From assembly GCA_030167865.1 (NCBI GenBank), contig JALAGF010005819.1:1-44368 (forward strand): DNA of 44,368 bases, written 5' to 3'. The notes below the pieces were generated by a model. It did no database searches, was not told the DNA's origin, and saw only the letters and a program-made list of their open reading frames with translations. This stretch comes from Craspedostauros australis. Taxonomy: Eukaryota. A program made the position numbers and the translations under genes. This document shows positions 37,309 through 44,368 of the stretch, one piece after another (within the stretch, counting starts at the first letter, position 1; every line of letters starts with the position of its first letter).

Positions 37309-39453
37309 ATGAGGACGATTAGCATGAGCATGAGCAGAGCCCTATTCGGCGCCGTTGTCGTGCTTGCATCGCTACCATCCACGCTGGTCGGCGTCCAGGG
37401 CAGCGTCCAGGGCAGCACAACCAACAATGAACGCGATCTGGCCATTCTGGACATCTACAAGCCAAGGATCGTGCCTCCATGGCTGTGCGGTCTGCAATCG
37501 GAGACGTCCATCTGCAGGAACATGGATGCGATTGTCATGGACCAGCGCCACGTGGCCTCGAAGGCCTCCGAATGGGGCGTGCTGGTGCTCATGCTGCAGT
37601 TCCAGGACCACGGCGACCGTCCCCTGGTGCACCCGCAGGACATTGAGGATCTGTTCAATGCCAGGTTCGAGGAGGACCTGGGCTCCCGCACGCCCACAGG
37701 CTTGGATTTGGACGGAAACAACGGAAACAACGACACTGTGACAGTGGAACAGCAGCAAGACGGGGACGGCAGCAGCAGCAATGTGTGGAAGACGCCGGTG
37801 GCGTCCGTCAACACGTACTTCCAGGCCAACTCCTTCGGCAAGTTCGACACCAAGGCCACCATCATCCCATGGACGATCGTCAATCGCACGGCCGCCAGCT
37901 GCCTCGGTTCCAACGCCTTGGTGCTCGAATGCCTGCACCCCATCCTCGAAGACTTGGACGCTCGCCACGCCGACACGAACCAGCTCTTCGATTGGCGTCA
38001 CGTCGACCAGAATCGCGATGGCGTCATCGACTCCCTCGTTCTGTTGCACAGCGAGTACCACTCGCCCTCCGTGGCGGACGTCACGAGCCAAGTCGGCGAC
38101 GCCCATGCCGCACCGTACACGGCCTCCGTGCCGGAACTGGGCCAGTGGAAATCAAACGTCTTCGACATGCAGGTGGCGACCTACAGCTCCATGTCGGCCT
38201 TCGCGGCCATCCACGATCCCGCCGTCATGGCGCAGGCGCAGCAACTGGATGGCAACGTCTATCGCGCGCCGACGATTCACCTGCGCACCATCCTCATAGA
38301 GCTCATGCATTCCATCGGATTCCCGTCCCTCATCCCGTCCAATCCGCGCGAAGAGGGCCATGGAACGGGGATGTACTCCCTGCTGTCGTTGCCACCGCCC
38401 ATCACAGAAGTGCCCAACACGCAGACGACCAGCATGCTAGATCCCTGGTCGCGCTATCAGCTGGGATGGATCCAGCCCATCCAAATCAAGGGCAACGGCA
38501 AGTTCGACAGCGAACCGTCCAGCGTCAGCGCCAACACGTCCGTCTACATCCTCTCCAAGTCCTATCCGGAGAACGAATACCTCCTCATCGAGAACAGGGA
38601 CACGCTCCTGTTCGACGCGCACCTGCCCACGCCTGGTATCCTCATCTGGCACATCGACGATCGCATTCGTGGCAACTACCGCGCCGGCGGCCCGTACCAG
38701 GACGGATGGCCGCAGAACAACAGGCATTATCAAGTGCGCGTCCTGCAGGCCGATGCGCAGTACAACTTGGAACAAGGCAACAATTTCGGGGACATCGGCG
38801 ACTACTACCGAACGGGCAGCGCGACGTTGGGACCCTCCACGGGCGGACGACGGCTTTCGTCGCATCATCTTCGCAATAATATCTTCAATCAAACAGGACC
38901 CATCTACCCAAACACGGACTCGCATCAAGGCGGCGTCGTCGTTGCCACGGGCATCGCCATTGGCAACTTCACGACGGACGATACCACGAAATCATTCCAA
39001 GTCACAGGTTTCAGCACGGACCACGACAGCGTAGGCGTCGATCTGAGGGGCGAGGTGCTCAAACAGTACTCCAACAAATGCTTGGTCCAAGTCAATGTCA
39101 AGTACTGCGACGATCTCATGGATATCTTTGTCGATTCGCGGCGGCATCTTGAACAGTCGGACGATGGTTGCGAATGCTATCAGTGGTGCGCCGAAACGGG
39201 CGAGGCCACATGCTGTCCCTACGGCACGGCCTGCAACATCAACTGTCCGCGGGGACGATTCGTTGCGGGATGCGTCATTCCGACCAAGAAACAAGACGAC
39301 GACGACAAGCACACGGAGGTGGAGCCGCCCAAGTACGAACCCGTCTCGGATGATGTGACGGATCCAACGCAACCACCAACGTCCGGTGCTGCGGGCATGC
39401 TGTATCGCTGCGGTGTGGCAATCGTGTGCGTCATTCCTTTCCTTTGGATATGA
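37309..39453 (+). CDS. Secreted, probably GPI-anchored M6 (immune inhibitor A-like) metalloprotease homolog with degenerate zinc motif, 714 aa
   Basis: Signal peptide, VLVLMLQFQDH, SVNTYFQANSFGK, DQNRDGVIDSLVLLHS, G.G.YSLLS, LDPWSRYQLGW, NEYLLIENR, GILIWHIDD and QADAQYNLE. It has a Cys-rich C-terminal domain and an SG followed by a hydrophobic tail. Confidence 0.8.
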   Translation: MRTISMSMSRALFGAVVVLASLPSTLVGVQGSVQGSTTNNERDLAILDIYKPRIVPPWLCGLQSETSICRNMDAIVMDQRHVASKASEWGVLVLMLQFQDHGDRPLVHPQDIEDLFNARFEEDLGSRTPTGLDLDGNNGNNDTVTVEQQQDGDGSSSNVWKTPVASVNTYFQANSFGKFDTKATIIPWTIVNRTAASCLGSNALVLECLHPILEDLDARHADTNQLFDWRHVDQNRDGVIDSLVLLHSEYHSPSVADVTSQVGDAHAAPYTASVPELGQWKSNVFDMQVATYSSMSAFAAIHDPAVMAQAQQLDGNVYRAPTIHLRTILIELMHSIGFPSLIPSNPREEGHGTGMYSLLSLPPPITEVPNTQTTSMLDPWSRYQLGWIQPIQIKGNGKFDSEPSSVSANTSVYILSKSYPENEYLLIENRDTLLFDAHLPTPGILIWHIDDRIRGNYRAGGPYQDGWPQNNRHYQVRVLQADAQYNLEQGNNFGDIGDYYRTGSATLGPSTGGRRLSSHHLRNNIFNQTGPIYPNTDSHQGGVVVATGIAIGNFTTDDTTKSFQVTGFSTDHDSVGVDLRGEVLKQYSNKCLVQVNVKYCDDLMDIFVDSRRHLEQSDDGCECYQWCAETGEATCCPYGTACNINCPRGRFVAGCVIPTKKQDDDDKHTEVEPPKYEPVSDDVTDPTQPPTSGAAGMLYRCGVAIVCVIPFLWI

Positions 39454-39627
39454 TGATGCAATCGGGTCAAAACGGGGGATTTGTTGCACAGACAGTAGTG
39501 ATATACACACCATACATAGCGCAGCGTAGCGAATGGCACAAGGGACTATAATGATCAAAGTTGCATCTGCGATTCAGCACATACAAGCCATCCAGTCGTC
39601 TTGCAGTTGACTTGGTATAATCCAACT

Positions 39628-42600
39628 CTATTCACACTCCTGCAAATACCGTTGCTTGTCTTGTGCCGCCATTTCCTCGAACTTTTGCTTGTCTTCATCA
39701 GAAATGGACTTCCATTGTCGCCCGAGCTCCTTGGAGATGTCGCCGAGCTTCGTCAAGGTCTTGGCAACCTCAGGCCTTCTTTCACCACAAAAGAAGATGT
39801 ACGCAGATCTGGGTCGTTTGGGTTGGTTGGAAGATGCGCTGCTCCGTGCCTTCGATTTGGACTTGGACGCCGTCTTCTTCTTCTTCTTCTTCTTCGTCGT
39901 CGTCGTCTTCTTGGGTTTAGCACCGGTCTCCTGATTGCATTCCTCCTCCCATTGCTTCTTCTTCACCTCGTACTCTTCCTTCGACTGCTGCGCCAGTCCA
40001 TCAAACGCTGCTCGGTCCGCTTCAGAGATCTTTGACCACTGCCGGGCAAGCTCCTTCGAGGCCTCTCCAAGCGAGCTTGTGGATTTGGCAACTTCCGATC
40101 GTCTGGCCGCACAAAAGTGTAGATAGGCCGACAGTGGACGTTTTGGTGCCTTTGGCAAGTCCGCGCCCGCCGACGATGACACGCCCCTCGTCTTCCTGCC
40201 CTCCTTGGCAGATCTGGTTTTGGGGTTTGCCGCCTTCTTCTCGATGAGAGCCCACGCGGTGTCCAGAGGTAGGTCGGATGGGTCCTCCATGTACTCGGCA
40301 GGCAGTTTGGCATTCACCTCCCTCCAGTTGATGTAGGAGCCAAAACGACCTCGTTTGACGGTCACCATGGAACCATCCTTCTCGCCCACCTCTACCAGTA
40401 CGCCTCGTGCAGTTTCTAATGTACGAGTAGAGCGGAGAAGCAAGCATCGAAGCGAAGGTGAGTTCTCGAACATTGTATTGTACAGCCATCCCTGGCATCG
40501 ACAACAGTCGCCTGCATACCACACTCGCACAGTAGAGTCATTCGACACAGACAGTCACACATGTTAGTATAACCCAAGCTCACAACACATGAAGCAAGTC
40601 ATTGAATCGATCCCGACACAAACTAATTCAGCGAAACTCACTCGGACTGTTGATGATGCGTTCCGTGACGATGGCTTCAGCTTCTTCGGCATCAATCCAA
40701 ATGACATCAGGGTCGTTCTTCTTCAGGTTCGCGTAGGTACCGTCGTACCTCAAGTACGGACCGTAGGGACCGATCGAACCGACGATGGGCTTTCCATGCA
40801 ACGTGCTGATCGTCTTGGGAAGCTCCAGGTACTTGATTGCCTCCTCGAACGTGAGGCCGATCAGATCCGACAAGGATTGATCCGATTCAGAAACCATACT
40901 CGCATCGATGTTTCGCATTGAACCAATGCTGCGGGGAAGGCTGTGAGTGGTTGTCTTCTCCTCTCCGTCTTCACCCCACTGGAGGTACGAACCGTAGCGT
41001 CCCACCTTGATGAACACTGGACGGCCATCCTCGGGGTGTTCACCGACGATCTCACCGCTCGATTCCTTCGACTTGAGGATCCTTTCCAGCATGGGTTGAG
41101 TGATGGAAGAGATGTCGGCAGCCAGTCCGGGAGGCAAGCTTGCGGATACTGCTTGCTGCGAAGTACTCGCAGTCTCCGCGCCATCGTTATCATCATTCTG
41201 TGAAGTGTCGTCCACCTTTTTCACGTACGGTCCCCACGGACCGATGAATAAGCCCACATTGTTGGCCGCGTCACCGGTCAACGAAGGGAGCTGGGCTCTG
41301 CGCGCGACATCAGGCTCGACCTCCTTGTCGATCCTGTCGATCTGAGCTGCCAGGCCGCTGTCGCCTTTGTAGAAGTTATCGAGATACTTGATCCGTTCTG
41401 CTTCGGCCACATCCGTGTTTGCGATGTGATCCAGCTGCTCCTCCATGCGTGCCGTGAAGTCAGAATCGACGAACATGGGACAGTGATCCTCCAGCAAAGA
41501 GCACACGACGAAGGCAGAGAGTGAGGGGACCATGGGACCTCGTGCACCGGCAGATCCGGTGAAGTCGTCACCACCGGCTGCACGCTGGGCGACAATGTCC
41601 ATGCCCGAAACCTGCTTCTTGGTACCGCGGATGGAATCTTGATTGGCGGCGATGGGACTTCCGACGTAGGCTCTGTCACGCAGCGTCTTCACGATGTTCG
41701 CGTACGTGCTGGGCCTTCCTACGCCGAGGAGCTCCAATTCACGGACGAAGCTGGCTTCAGTGTACCGCGCGGGAGGTTGCGTCACATGATCTGTGCAGGA
41801 AATAGACTTGCATTGCAGCGGTTGGCCTTCAGTGACGGATGGCAGTTCCATTCTCTCTTTGTCAGCATTCGACGCGTACACCGTCGTGTATCCGGGATCT
41901 AGCACAACGCTTCCTGTGGTTCTGAACTGCACATCTGTGTTGCCGTCGGTGCCTTCGATTGTCACGGTGGTCTGATTGGAGATCTGCGGCGGCATGCACG
42001 ATGCCACAGTTCGTCGGAAGATCATCTCGTAGACCTTCACCTCCATAGGACCGACTTTGGATGGAAGATCAAGCGGAAGTAAGAACTTGCCATCGGGCTG
42101 GATGGCAGGGCGGATTGCCTCGTGGGCCGCTTGCGGGTCTACTTCTTTCGGTTTCTCGCTGCCGTCATCTTTTGTCGATGACCTCTTCATCTTCTTGGTT
42201 GATTTCTTTGCCTTCGACGGGTCCTTGGGCTGGAAGTTTGCCTTGCCTCCGTAGTTGGTCACGATGCAATCTAGCACGGCAGCCACCGTGTCGTTGGAGA
42301 GATGGTCGGAGTCGGTTCTCATGTAGCTGATGTATCCATTCTCGTAAAGTTTCTGCGCGCACTGCATGGTCTGGCTCACTGACAGAGCCAATCGCCTGTT
42401 CGCCTCCTGTTGTATGGTCGACGTAATGAATGCAGTGGGCGACTGTGTTTTGCGTTTCGTGGACTTAATCTCGCCGATCTGCCAGCTCCAATCATCAGGC
42501 GAAGCTTCGATTCGTTTCGTCAACTCCGTTGCCTCGGATTCCATGAGGTGATGCTTCTTGCGTCCAGCCCGCGTCAGCTTGTTTGATTCGTTGGGTTCGA

Positions 42601-43867
42601 AGTCGGCAGTGCCAGAGACGAGCTTGATTCCATCGATGGCAACAAGATCAGCGTCAAAGCCTTTGTCATGATGGACGAGCTCCAGACTAGCGAATGTCCC
42701 ATTCAAGCTCCAGTACTCCGATGGCTGGAACCGCAGTCGCTGTCGCTCGCGTTCCACGATCAATGCCATTCCTACAGATTGGACCCGACCAGCCGACAAT
42801 CCCGGGGCGATCTTCTTCCACAGAACAGGGGATACCGTGAATCCAGCAAGCCGATCCAGCACGCGCCTCGTTTCCTGAGCCTGTACAAGGCCGTCCCTCA
42901 ACGAGTCGGACGGATTCTGGATGGCCTCGACGATCGCTTTTGCAGTGATCTCGGTGAATCGAATACGAATGGCTGGCAGTTGGTCCCCTCCGACGCCATT
43001 CTTCTTTTTCTTTTTGGTGTTCGTTGACTTTCCATTCTGCAGACACTCGAGCAGATGCCATGCCATGGCCTCGCCTTCGCGATCATCATCCGTCGCAAGG
43101 ACCAGCTGCTGAGCTTTATCTGCCCAATCCTTGAGTTCCTCGAGCAGTCGGATCTTGCCTGGCATGGTGATGTACTCGGCCTCGTACCTGTCGCCTTCCA
43201 GATCGATCCCAGGTATGAGTTGGTCCTTGGATGTCTTCTGTTTTGGCAGATCGCGAATGTGGCCCATGCAGGATGTGACGACGAAATCATAGTCGAGGTC
43301 ATTTTCCTTGACATGCTTCTGCAGAATCTTGGAGATCGTGGAGCACTTGCTGGGCGATTCAACGATGACGAGCTTGAACGGTCGTTTGGATGTATCAGTC
43401 GGGCCGAACACGGACAGCGACTGTTGCTTGGCGAATTTCGGCGCTGACGATGTTGACGGTGCTGGCGCTGGTGGTGCTGTTGTTGCGGAGTACAGCCGGA
43501 ATGTGCTCAGACGCAGCGGCCTTGGCTGTGGCACGCCAAGAAAACAGCGACCGTGATGACATCGACGAAGATGATGGCTGTGGAGCAGGTGATCGTGTTG
43601 GATCATTCCAACGGGATTGCATGCAGGTTGGAACACTTGCGGCGTGGCGGAAACAGCACGCCGGCGAGTAATGGTAGAACGAGCGATGTCTGAGTTGAGA
43701 GACATTGATGCTCTTGCAGATCGTTGAACACGGCCATTTGTGGCAAAACCCGAGATGAATGAGTGGGTCACGCGAAGCTGCAGCAAAGACACCATCATGC
43801 CGAGCATCAAGATCCTCGCAGACATTCCTGCTGCCATTGTCACTGTGGATGCTGCAGTCGTTGCCAT
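39628..43867 (-). CDS. topA: Organelle-targeted bacterial-type DNA topoisomerase IA with C-terminal repeats and two HMG boxes, 2 exons, 1337 aa
   Basis: Exons 43867-40642 and 40415-39628 (A|AA, in frame). TOPRIM motifs LVIVESPSK and LATDDDREGE, plus SAGRVQS, catalytic GYISYMRTDS, AHEAIRP and GVGRPSTYA. Four G(R/P)(Y/F/W)G(P/S)Y C-terminal repeats precede HMG boxes PKRPLSAYLHFC… and PKRPRSAYIFFC…. Signal peptide ends THS|F. Confidence 0.92.
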
Positions 43868-44368
43868 CCCCTCACTGCCACTTCCAGTATTGAGAGTATA
43901 CTACTCTAGTTGGTATCCTGGATGATGATGGGGCAGGGTACCGCTGATGGTTGGTTTGTAACTCGAGTACTTGTGTAGTATGGTAGTGTGGAATAGTAGG
44001 TAGGATACACCGAAGTGATAGCGACACGGAGAGTGATTACACGAGCGCAGCTCTTCACGGAACAAAATGATTTTTTGTCAACTGTCTGAACATTTGTGGT
44101 GGGAGATGTGTTTGACGTTTGCGATCCACTCGTGTCTCAACTAAGGAGGTATGACTGGAAGAGAATGAGACAGGTCACGGACGAACAAGTACTGATCTAG
44201 CCTCCTCTTGACATGCCCTGAAACCAGATTGAATNACACATCTGGATTCTGACACCAAGACGGATCCTGACGTGTTGCAGTGGCGAGGATTGCAAGCAGA
44301 GAGAAAGGATGCAAACAACAGAAACATCGCATCACTCTCACAACAGCAGCATCCATCACATCGAGCAT

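What the first reader, a model, noticed from the sequence alone, without database searches (positions are those of the whole stretch)
39628..40415. Organellar type IA topoisomerase fused to a tandem pair of HMG boxes
Seen: after the TopA core and C-terminal repeats, a GT-AG splice (40641-40416) continues in frame into a fourth repeat (VKRGRFGSY). Two complete HMG boxes follow, separated by a Lys-rich linker. The N-terminus looks like a bipartite plastid presequence. Known: tandem HMG boxes are the architecture of organellar nucleoid packagers (TFAM, Abf2, Chlamydomonas HBD1), while bacterial TopA normally ends in Zn-ribbon or Topo C-terminal repeats. Inference: one polypeptide coupling DNA bending/compaction to relaxation in the plastid nucleoid. 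I know of no characterisation of such a fusion but cannot check its prevalence.
Basis: partly seen in the sequence, partly recalled or inferred. Interest (0 to 1): 0.75.

Follow-up and report, generated by a model that had tools for sequence, protein, structure and literature searches.

The report
Plastid-type topoisomerase I with HMG-box tail
This is a real two-exon algal nuclear gene for a bacterial-type DNA-relaxing enzyme, apparently sent to the plastid, that carries two eukaryotic HMG DNA-bending domains on its tail; the same fusion is conserved in diatoms and a cryptophyte, and I found no paper describing it.

Summary
A minus-strand gene (exon 1 43867-40642, GT-AG intron 40641-40416, exon 2 40415-39628) encodes a 1337-residue protein. 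Its parts are an N-terminal presequence, Toprim, Topoisom_bac, four Toprim_C_rpt repeats (the fourth in exon 2) and two HMG boxes.

- **Splice:** supported by homologues. 17 of 22 metagenome loci read through the junction in one frame. 3 of 22 have a phase-1 GT-AG intron at the same codon. Transcriptome-derived proteins are continuous there. No RNA evidence from the source organism covers the junction.
- **Prevalence:** The named ones are seven pennate diatoms and the cryptophyte Guillardia theta.
- **Bacterial relatives:** they stop just after repeat 4.
- **Targeting:** the window and 39 of the 77 homologue N-termini examined show a hydrophobic stretch followed by Phe, the diatom plastid-import signature, against 6.7 expected by chance.

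Function is inferred: a plastid relaxing enzyme tethered to nucleoid DNA by HMGB-type boxes. Eight literature searches found no description. I rate it a new variant of a known kind.

The parts
40642..43867 (-). Exon 1 coding part (1075 codons plus the first base of the junction Lys codon): presequence, TopA core, Toprim_C_rpt 1-3
   Evidence: Open frame read; Pfam; spliced CDS of 4014 nt with one terminal stop
43760..43825 (-). Predicted signal-peptide part of a bipartite presequence (residues 15-36, from the third Met), followed by Phe37 (43759-43757) and a Ser/Thr/Arg-rich, acid-free stretch
   Evidence: Own rule (10-residue hydrophobic window followed by [ASGC]-Phe); sequence. Not run through SignalP or ASAFind
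43034..43375 (-). Toprim domain (residues 165-278); E170, D260, D262 and E264 lie in invariant columns
   Evidence: Pfam PF01751 7.9e-17; invariant columns
41660..42898 (-). Topoisom_bac domain (residues 324-736) with Tyr515 (42325-42323) in the invariant Y-M-R-T-D columns
   Evidence: Pfam PF01131 6.9e-97. Naming Tyr515 the catalytic tyrosine rests on recalled knowledge of E. coli TopA
40643..41275 (-). Toprim_C_rpt repeats 1-3 (motifs start at residues 876, 956, 1033)
   Evidence: Pfam PF13368 3.4e-21 with 2 stretches; motif positions
40416..40641 (-). Intron, 226 nt, GTGAGT...AG, phase 1
   Evidence: Sequence. Same position and phase in loci L085, L090, L093. 36 ORF-type gene calls end at window residues 1067-1082
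39628..40415 (-).
40219..40401 (-). Toprim_C_rpt repeat 4 (four strands and a helix, pLDDT above 90)
   Evidence: Pfam 4.5e-13; AlphaFold2 model
39925..40149 (-). HMG box 1 (three helices, pLDDT about 97)
39829..39924 (-). Lys/Ser/Thr-rich linker; residues 173-193 of the exon-2 peptide have pLDDT under 50
39631..39828 (-). HMG box 2; the protein ends two residues after it; stop codon 39630-39628

Best explanation
This is a nuclear gene of a diatom or a close relative. It encodes the precursor of an organellar, most likely plastid, type IA DNA topoisomerase.

Shown:
- The gene has two exons.
- The protein is a full bacterial-type TopA, with a Toprim and Topoisom_bac core, conserved catalytic columns and four Toprim_C_rpt repeats.
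- The TopA is extended by two HMGB-type boxes on flexible basic tethers.
- This extension sits where bacterial relatives simply end.
- The architecture is conserved, with 1-4 boxes, in diatoms and a cryptophyte.

Inferred:
- The presequence is a signal peptide followed by Phe and a transit-peptide-like stretch. It takes the protein across the four plastid membranes into the stroma.
- There the core relaxes negative supercoils by the usual strand-passage cycle, with the four repeats holding single-stranded DNA.
- The HMG boxes bind duplex DNA without sequence preference, favouring bent or underwound DNA. They keep the enzyme on the nucleoid and raise its residence time or processivity, as lysine-repeat tails do in actinobacterial TopA.
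- With two or more boxes, the tail may also bridge or bend plastid DNA.
For: **Gene structure**
- Searches give the frame, splice signals and domains.
- Transcriptome-derived homologues (P0058 and P0038 from MMETSP, P0019 from EukProt) are continuous across the junction.
- Of 22 metagenome loci examined, 17 are continuous in one frame across the junction, 3 have a GT-AG phase-1 intron at the same codon, and 2 are uninformative.

**Enzyme integrity**
- Invariant columns include E170, D260, D262, E264 and Y515-M-R-T-D.

**An added module**
- 26 bacterial TopAs of about 848 residues align to window residues 166-1137, through repeat 4, and then end within 0-3 residues.

**Conservation**
- 118 database proteins carry both repeat and boxes.
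- In none of the 119 (window included) does a box precede the last repeat.
- In the 29 newest fused proteins listed, the spacer is 17-61 residues. 22 of them end within 10 residues of the last box and 7 run 16-97 further.
- In the earlier set, all 70 TopA-linked proteins end within 19 residues of the last box.

**HMG type**
- The best PDB sequence matches are HMGB1 (3.1e-18) and TFAM over both boxes (4.5e-12).
- The AlphaFold2 model has mean pLDDT 85, with two three-helix boxes and disordered tethers.
- The Foldseek top hits are tandem HMGB1, Abf2p and TFAM.

**Targeting**
- 40 of 78 N-termini, the window included, show the hydrophobic stretch plus [ASGC]-Phe, against 6.7 expected from shuffles.
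- Phe at +1 is the described hallmark of plastid import in diatoms and cryptophytes (PMC4329603, passages).
- The red alga C. merolae sends its type IA TOP1 to the plastid only (PMC3914683, passages).

**Analogy for the tail**
- Streptomyces TopA lysine repeats confer processivity (PMC5714199, title and abstract start in the search listing).
- Chlamydia TopA carries a eukaryote-type SWIB tail (PMC12445093, abstract).
Against: - No transcript of the source organism covers the junction. The only run found holds a contig over 39607-40137, and it is not on record as RNA.
- Targeting rests on a crude rule of my own. SignalP, ASAFind and HECTAR were not run.
- 38 of 78 N-termini lack the motif. Several of these look cut at the start, but that is a judgement.
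- Arabidopsis sends its TopA homologue to both organelles (PMC3914683, passages), so a mitochondrial share is open.
- HMG boxes and a run of seven Lys are also typical of nuclear proteins.
- The Chlamydia enzyme with its SWIB tail is less processive than E. coli TopA (PMC12445093, abstract). An added chromatin-type domain therefore need not raise processivity.
- No binding, relaxation or localisation data exist for any member that I could find.
Confidence: 0.62

Rival explanations
1. Same protein, but mitochondrial or dual-targeted. The HMG tail would then work in the mitochondrial nucleoid, the usual home of tandem HMG-box packaging proteins such as TFAM and Abf2.
For: - The tandem boxes match TFAM and Abf2p by sequence and by fold.
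- Arabidopsis AtTOP1 is dual-localised (PMC3914683, passages).
- Each named diatom appears once among the 120 hits listed, so one gene may have to serve both organelles.
- There are three Met codons in the first 15 residues, which could give alternative starts.
Against: - The hydrophobic stretch followed by Phe fits ER-routed plastid import, not a mitochondrial presequence. It recurs in 40 of 78 N-termini against 6.7 expected.
- In the red alga C. merolae the type IA enzyme is plastid-only, and mitochondria use a TOP2 (PMC3914683, PMC4166229, passages).
Confidence: 0.17
2. The HMG tail is mainly architectural. On this reading the protein is a major nucleoid-packaging or DNA-bridging factor, a plastid counterpart of HBD1 or TFAM, and the topoisomerase is a passenger. 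Alternatively the boxes recruit partner proteins rather than DNA.
For: - The box number varies from 1 to 4, and most proteins have three, as expected for a bridging module.
- HBD1, with two boxes, organises Chlamydomonas chloroplast nucleoids (PMC8157925, abstract and passages).
- The flexible tethers would allow two DNA segments to be held.
Against: - In none of the 119 proteins does a box precede the last repeat, which suggests that the boxes serve the enzyme.
- A catalytic enzyme is unlikely to be abundant enough to coat DNA. That is inference, with no data.
- Ten proteins show a single box, though some of these are fragments.
Confidence: 0.15
3. Two separate genes, or a nuclear protein. 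Either TopA ends before 40416 and an independent HMG protein lies downstream, or the whole protein acts in the nucleus with the Lys run as a nuclear import signal.
For: - Automatic ORF callers split relatives into a TopA of about 980 residues and an HMG protein of about 340 residues.
- An in-frame stop lies four codons into the intron.
- The linker holds seven consecutive Lys.
Against: - Exon 2 begins with the fourth Toprim_C_rpt and has no start codon of its own before it.
- 17 of 22 loci and three transcriptome-derived proteins read through the junction.
- The split calls end and begin exactly at the intron.
- The N-terminus looks like a secretory or plastid presequence.
Confidence: 0.04

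Closest known systems
Bacterial TopA with Toprim_C_rpt C-terminal domain (mycobacterial and actinobacterial type; Streptomyces TopA with lysine repeats)
   Same: The Toprim and Topoisom_bac core and the four C-terminal repeats are the same. A basic extension follows the repeats. In Streptomyces that extension stabilises the enzyme-DNA complex and gives processivity (PMC5714199, title and abstract start). The repeats bind single-stranded DNA in M. smegmatis TopA (PMC7192597, title and abstract start).
   Different: The extension here consists of folded eukaryotic HMG boxes on tethers, not a low-complexity lysine tail. The gene is nuclear, has an intron and encodes an organelle presequence. The bacterial relatives found here end 0-3 residues after repeat 4.
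Chlamydia trachomatis TopA with C-terminal SWIB domain
   Same: A type IA topoisomerase carries a eukaryotic chromatin-type domain at its C-terminus, restricted to one lineage (PMC12445093, abstract; PMC4758235, passage).
   Different: The added domain is SWIB, not HMG. The host is a bacterium, not an organelle-targeted eukaryotic protein. The Chlamydia enzyme is reported to be less processive than E. coli TopA.
Tandem HMG-box organelle nucleoid proteins: TFAM, Abf2p, Chlamydomonas HBD1
   Same: Two HMGB-type boxes in tandem. The sequence matches TFAM over both boxes (4.5e-12). The fold matches Abf2p and TFAM. HBD1 shows that HMG boxes can act in a chloroplast nucleoid (PMC8157925).
   Different: Those are small stand-alone proteins. 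Here the boxes form the tail of an enzyme. The inter-box linker is predicted disordered, whereas TFAM has a helical linker (recalled). Relatives carry 1-4 boxes. No sequence of HBD1 was compared here.
Organellar type IA TOP1 of plants and red algae (AtTOP1 At4g31210; C. merolae CMI252C)
   Same: A nuclear-encoded bacterial-type TopA sent to plastids: plastid only in C. merolae, both organelles in Arabidopsis (PMC3914683 and PMC4166229, passages).
   Different: Those papers mention no HMG boxes for these enzymes, and I could not fetch their sequences. The best bacterial matches of the window's core are 30-36% identical and come from mixed phyla. No record title among the 80 loci kept names a cyanobacterium, so common origin with the red-algal enzyme is untested.

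Membership tests
Type IA DNA topoisomerase, bacterial TopA type | Toprim domain with conserved acidic residues | tested here: met
   PF01751 7.9e-17 against a cut-off of 23.1 bits. E170, D260, D262 and E264 are invariant in an 11-sequence alignment with bacterial TopAs.
Type IA DNA topoisomerase, bacterial TopA type | Topoisom_bac domain with the active-site tyrosine | tested here: met
   PF01131 6.9e-97. Y515-M-R-T-D lies in invariant columns. Its role as nucleophile is recalled from E. coli TopA.
Type IA DNA topoisomerase, bacterial TopA type | C-terminal DNA-binding domain of Toprim_C_rpt repeats | tested here: met
   PF13368 in exon 1 (3.4e-21, 2 stretches) and exon 2 (4.5e-13). Four repeat motifs. 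Bacterial relatives align through repeat 4.
Type IA DNA topoisomerase, bacterial TopA type | Relaxation of negatively supercoiled DNA | not testable with these tools
   Needs a recombinant enzyme assay.
HMGB-type (non-sequence-specific) HMG-box domains | HMG_box profile match above the curated cut-off, twice | tested here: met
   PF00505 1.2e-27, 96.5 bits against 25.4, 2 stretches. Own profile gives 3e-28 and 1.1e-29.
HMGB-type (non-sequence-specific) HMG-box domains | Three-helix L-shaped fold | tested here: met
   AlphaFold2 helices at 96-111, 115-128, 131-163 and at 204-217, 223-236, 239-260, pLDDT about 97. Single-box Foldseek matches have rmsd 1.0-3 A.
HMGB-type (non-sequence-specific) HMG-box domains | Closer to HMGB/TFAM than to SOX/LEF boxes | tested here: met
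   HMGB1 3.1e-18 and TFAM 4.5e-12, against SOX2 about 6e-4 and SRY about 1e-3.
Stand-alone organelle nucleoid packagers (TFAM/Abf2/HBD1 class) | Small protein made essentially of two HMG boxes | tested here: not met
   The boxes are the last 170 residues of a 1337-residue enzyme. It may work like this class but is not a member.
Stand-alone organelle nucleoid packagers (TFAM/Abf2/HBD1 class) | Nucleoid localisation and DNA compaction | not testable with these tools
   Needs microscopy and DNA-binding or compaction assays.
Stroma-targeted proteins of complex red-lineage plastids (bipartite presequence, ASAFAP motif) | N-terminal signal peptide | tested here: inconclusive
   A hydrophobic stretch at residues 19-31 follows a short basic start. 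This is only a hydropathy rule of mine; SignalP was not available.
Stroma-targeted proteins of complex red-lineage plastids (bipartite presequence, ASAFAP motif) | Phe (or Trp, Tyr, Leu) at +1 of the transit peptide | tested here: met
   Ser36 is followed by Phe37 directly after the hydrophobic stretch. The same pattern occurs in 40 of 78 N-termini against 6.7 expected. The criterion is taken from PMC4329603 (passages).
Stroma-targeted proteins of complex red-lineage plastids (bipartite presequence, ASAFAP motif) | Transit peptide rich in hydroxylated residues, few acidic residues, net positive | tested here: met
   The 20 residues from Phe37 hold no Asp or Glu, 3 Arg and 5 Ser/Thr (read). No ASAFind score was computed.

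The most novel reading that the evidence does not exclude
The HMG-tailed TopA is an old, shared invention of algae with red-derived complex plastids, seen here in diatoms and a cryptophyte. It would be their main eukaryote-derived plastid nucleoid organiser: a TFAM-like DNA bender and bridger welded to the enzyme that resets supercoiling. Nucleoid compaction and torsional relaxation would then be done by one molecule, with the box number (1-4) tuning compaction between lineages.
Probability: 0.15. Interest if true: 0.75.

Novelty: new variant of a known kind. Interest (0 to 1): 0.55.

Why it matters
Little is known about which proteins organise plastid DNA in diatoms, which are major marine primary producers. 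The HBD1 paper states that HMG-box proteins had not been reported in chloroplast nucleoids before HBD1 (PMC8157925, passage).

A conserved enzyme that joins a bacterial relaxing activity to eukaryotic DNA-bending domains gives three things:
- A ready candidate for a nucleoid-resident topoisomerase in red-lineage complex plastids.
- A natural test of how non-catalytic DNA-binding tails set the processivity of type IA topoisomerases.
- A clean example of host domains being grafted onto an endosymbiont-type enzyme.

There is also a practical point. ORF-based gene callers split this gene at its intron, so metagenome catalogues list many relatives as two unrelated proteins.

Tried and rejected
- **RNA evidence.** No RNA holder is listed. 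The one run found (X1, kind guessed) holds two contigs, over 39400-39572 and 39607-40137, both identical to the window. Neither reaches the intron, so the junction is untested in this organism.
- **Own genome.** None is held, so paralogues could not be sought.
- **ESM Atlas.** There was no usable hit for exon 2. For P0025 it returned only general TopA clusters, and at most three families are shown per cluster, so the absence of HMG there says nothing.
- **Origin of the core.**
  - The first genome-contig scan found nothing.
  - The second gave 80 loci from mixed phyla at 30-36% identity, none with a title naming a cyanobacterium.
  - The control genomes of the genome search give tallies only, so I could not obtain a cyanobacterial or red-algal sequence.
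  - No origin tree was made, and the origin is left open.
- **Third HMG box.** I looked for one downstream of the stop, because most relatives have three. None appears in any frame of the window.
- **ASAFind supplements.** 12 of the 13 files of PMC4329603 were searched for 'topoisomerase', with no hit. They hold sequences without names.
- **Neighbouring gene.** The 709-residue product of 37324-39450(+) has no Pfam family.
- **Tree.** The tree of the repeat 4 to box 1 segment is short, midpoint-rooted and printed without support values. I use it only to say that the Guillardia-like sequences stand apart from the diatom-like ones.
Full report
**1. What is in the sequence**

The finding lies on the minus strand.
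- An open frame starts at the ATG at 43867 and runs to 40642. Read on without splicing, it stops four codons later.
- At 40641 the sequence reads GTGAGT. A pyrimidine-rich stretch ends in AG at 40417-40416.
- Removing these 226 bases joins one base of exon 1 to two bases of exon 2 as a Lys codon. The frame then stays open to the stop at 39630-39628.
- The joined coding sequence is 4014 nt with one terminal stop, giving 1337 residues.

Pfam places these domains:

| Part | Domain | E-value |
|---|---|---|
| Exon 1 | Toprim | 7.9e-17 |
| Exon 1 | Topoisom_bac | 6.9e-97 |
| Exon 1 | Toprim_C_rpt (2 stretches) | 3.4e-21 |
| Exon 2 | Toprim_C_rpt | 4.5e-13 |
| Exon 2 | HMG_box (2 stretches) | 1.2e-27 |

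The repeat motif occurs four times, the last in exon 2. A six-frame scan of the whole window with an HMG profile built from the family finds these two boxes and no others.

**2. Is the splice real?**

No transcript of this organism could be laid across the junction.
- The one public run that holds the stretch is not on record as RNA.
- Its contigs cover only 39400-39572 and 39607-40137.

The support is therefore comparative, and it is strong.

- In an alignment with transcriptome-derived homologues (two MMETSP proteins, one EukProt protein), the window's predicted junction lines up with continuous sequence, with only a 1-2 residue length difference.
- I fetched 80 metagenome loci with the exon-2 alignment. 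I examined the 22 whose match reached the start of exon 2 or nearly so (L085-L104, L106, L120).

| Result across the junction | Loci (of 22) |
|---|---|
| One continuous frame | 17 |
| Break exactly at the junction | 3 (L085, L090, L093) |
| Uninformative | 2 |

- In the three loci with a break, the DNA shows a GT...AG intron of about 90-110 bases. It has the same phase as in the window, after the first base of the codon.
- 36 ORF-type gene calls of about 795-1103 residues have a TopA core and no HMG box. They align to the window's protein up to residues 1067-1082 and then carry 5-151 unrelated residues.
- About a dozen calls of about 340-370 residues start, after a few unrelated residues, where exon 2 starts.

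So the apparent 'TopA without HMG' relatives are the same gene cut at this intron by gene callers that do not splice.

One alternative in-frame acceptor lies 12 bases downstream (AG at 40405-40404).

**3. What the protein is**

The enzyme part looks intact.
- In an alignment with diatom-like and bacterial TopAs, the Toprim acidic residues (E170, D260, D262, E264) are invariant.
- So are the Tyr515-Met-Arg-Thr-Asp columns.
- Naming Tyr515 the nucleophile rests on what I recall of E. coli TopA.

Bacterial relatives define where the added module starts.
- The closest listed ones are about 848 residues long and 35-37% identical by BLASTP (34-36.5% in my own BLAST).
- They include Fodinibius species and unnamed Bacteroidota.
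- They align from residue 166 to residue 1137, which covers all four repeats. They end 0-3 residues later in a short Lys-rich stretch.
- The last 200 residues of the window's protein are therefore an added module.

An AlphaFold2 model of exon 2 was built on 21 aligned sequences, with mean pLDDT 85 and pTM 0.41. Residue numbers below count along the exon-2 peptide.

| Residues | Element | pLDDT |
|---|---|---|
| 5-61 | Repeat 4 | above 90 |
| 71-83 | Disordered spacer | under 50 |
| 96-163 | Three-helix HMG box 1 | about 97 |
| 173-193 | Disordered Lys-rich linker | under 50 |
| 204-260 | Three-helix HMG box 2 | about 97 |

The low pTM fits modules with no fixed mutual position.

- By sequence, the boxes are nearest to HMGB1 (3.1e-18) and to TFAM across both boxes (4.5e-12). 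They are far from SOX and SRY boxes (about 1e-3).
- By fold, the top matches are tandem HMGB1, Abf2p and TFAM.
- They are thus of the non-sequence-specific, DNA-bending type.

**4. How common the fusion is**

- With exon 2 as query and longer proteins allowed, 42 of the 49 hits combine Toprim_C_rpt with HMG_box. 36 of those also carry Topoisom_bac.
- A search with the core added more.
- A profile of repeat 4 plus box 1 added still more.
- In the exhaustive search of 1.84 billion cluster representatives, 43 of the best 150 carry both a repeat and boxes by my profiles.

Of the 386 database proteins held at the end, 118 have both.

| Boxes | Proteins (119, window included) |
|---|---|
| 1 | 10 |
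| 2 | 39 |
| 3 | 65 |
| 4 | 5 |

- Fragments are included, so these box numbers are lower bounds.
- In none of the 119 does a box lie before the last repeat.
- In the 29 newest fused proteins listed, the spacer is 17-61 residues. 22 of them end within 10 residues of the last box and 7 run 16-97 residues further.
- In the earlier set, all 70 TopA-linked proteins end within 19 residues of the last box.
- The window has boxes 1 and 2 of the common three-box form and lacks the third.

The sources' names cover seven pennate diatoms:
- Pseudo-nitzschia multistriata
- Nitzschia inconspicua
- Seminavis robusta
- Epithemia clementina
- Mayamaea pseudoterrestris
- Cylindrotheca fusiformis
- Amphora coffeaeformis

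They also cover one cryptophyte, Guillardia theta, as a partial protein with four repeats and two boxes.

In a rough tree of the repeat 4 to box 1 segment, the Guillardia-like sequences stand apart. The window falls among the diatom-like ones (short segment, midpoint-rooted, no support values shown).

Most proteins are unnamed, and the tool that would name them was off. Centric diatoms, other ochrophytes, haptophytes and red algae are therefore neither shown nor excluded.

**5. Where it acts**

The first 165 residues precede the Toprim domain.
- From the third Met, the sequence has a short basic start and a hydrophobic stretch, then Ser36-Phe37.
- The next 20 residues hold no acidic residue, three Arg and five Ser/Thr.
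[quoted passage not shown] The transit peptide is hydroxyl-rich and positively charged (PMC4329603, passages read).

I tested a simple rule: a 10-residue window of mean hydropathy at least 1.6, followed within ten residues by [ASGC]-Phe.
- The rule is met by 40 of the 78 N-termini that start with Met and have at least 50 residues before the Toprim motif.
- Shuffles give 6.7.
- Several of the 38 failures show the Ala-Phe motif close to a probably mis-set start.

This is my own crude stand-in for SignalP and ASAFind, which I could not run.

The background fits. The red alga C. merolae sends its type IA TOP1 to the plastid only, while Arabidopsis sends its homologue to both organelles (PMC3914683 and PMC4166229, passages). 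I put plastid targeting at about 0.7 and keep a mitochondrial share open.

**6. How it most likely works**

- **Shown:** the architecture, its conservation, the intact catalytic columns, and the HMGB-type fold on flexible basic tethers.
- **From established knowledge of the families:** TopA relaxes negative supercoils, and HMGB-type boxes bind duplex DNA in the minor groove without sequence preference and bend it.
- **Inferred:** the boxes act as a duplex-DNA tether. This would keep the enzyme on the plastid nucleoid and prolong each encounter, and with two or more boxes may bridge or bend DNA.

The nearest precedents are these.
- The lysine repeats after the same kind of C-terminal repeats in Streptomyces TopA stabilise the enzyme-DNA complex and confer processivity (PMC5714199, title and abstract start).
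- Chlamydia TopA has a eukaryote-type SWIB tail (PMC12445093, abstract). That enzyme is less processive than E. coli TopA, so a processivity gain cannot be assumed.
- HBD1 of Chlamydomonas shows that two HMG boxes can organise a chloroplast nucleoid (PMC8157925, abstract and passages).

**7. Novelty**

Eight full-text searches combined topoisomerase, HMG box, diatom, plastid, nucleoid, Phaeodactylum, Guillardia, fusion and related terms.
- None returned a paper that describes a type IA topoisomerase with HMG boxes.
- The two reviews of organellar replication enzymes that I read in passages do not mention it.
- The library lacks most subscription journals, so this is not proof of absence.
- The proteins themselves are in public databases under plain names ('DNA topoisomerase I', 'HMG box domain-containing protein').

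I rate it a new variant of a known kind: TopA enzymes with lineage-specific C-terminal DNA-binding tails. It is well supported as a real and conserved gene. It is of moderate interest until localisation and biochemistry are done.

Noticed in passing
window 39628-39830, against relatives such as P0025, P0058, P0019: Most relatives carry a third, more divergent HMG box after box 2. The window's protein ends two residues after box 2, and no third box exists in any frame of the window. Some relatives (P0036, P0037, P0038) instead keep boxes 1 and 3.
   Followed up: yes
relatives P0113-P0120, P0003-P0005, P0169; locus L120: A second recurrent break sits inside repeat 2. Seven TopA-only calls end exactly at window residue 957, and HMG-bearing calls of about 490 residues begin there. 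L120 changes frame at residues 951-954. This is probably another conserved intron in a different clade. Its DNA boundaries were not inspected.
   Followed up: partly
window 40404-40415: A second AG 12 bases downstream of the acceptor would also be in frame and would remove four residues. Retaining the intron would give a TopA with three repeats and no HMG tail, since a stop follows after four codons. Alternative products are therefore conceivable, but no RNA data bear on it.
   Followed up: no
window 37324-39450 (+): The convergent neighbour is a 709-residue open frame with a hydrophobic N-terminus and a Cys-rich C-terminal part, and it has no Pfam family. A contig of run X1 covers its 3' end (39400-39572) and stops 34 bases from the contig that covers the topoisomerase gene's 3' end.
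   Followed up: partly
loci L001-L080; proteins P0128-P0153: The best bacterial matches of the TopA core are only 30-37% identical and come from several phyla (Fodinibius/Balneolales, Bacteroidota, Actinomycetota, Planctomycetota, Pseudomonadota). No record title among the 80 kept of 637 matched stretches names a cyanobacterium, although red-algal type IA TOP1 is reported to be cyanobacterial. The origin of the diatom enzyme is unresolved, and no tree was made.
   Followed up: partly
Guillardia theta protein P0170 and relatives P0044, P0042, P0171: The cryptophyte form has the same four repeats plus two boxes, but its N-terminus is missing. In cryptophytes the residue at +1 decides between the stroma and the periplastid space, which holds the nucleomorph genome. 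Its destination is therefore an open and interesting point.
   Followed up: no
window, whole: The window holds 161 N, one of them near 44235 upstream of the gene, and has 52.7% G+C.
   Followed up: no
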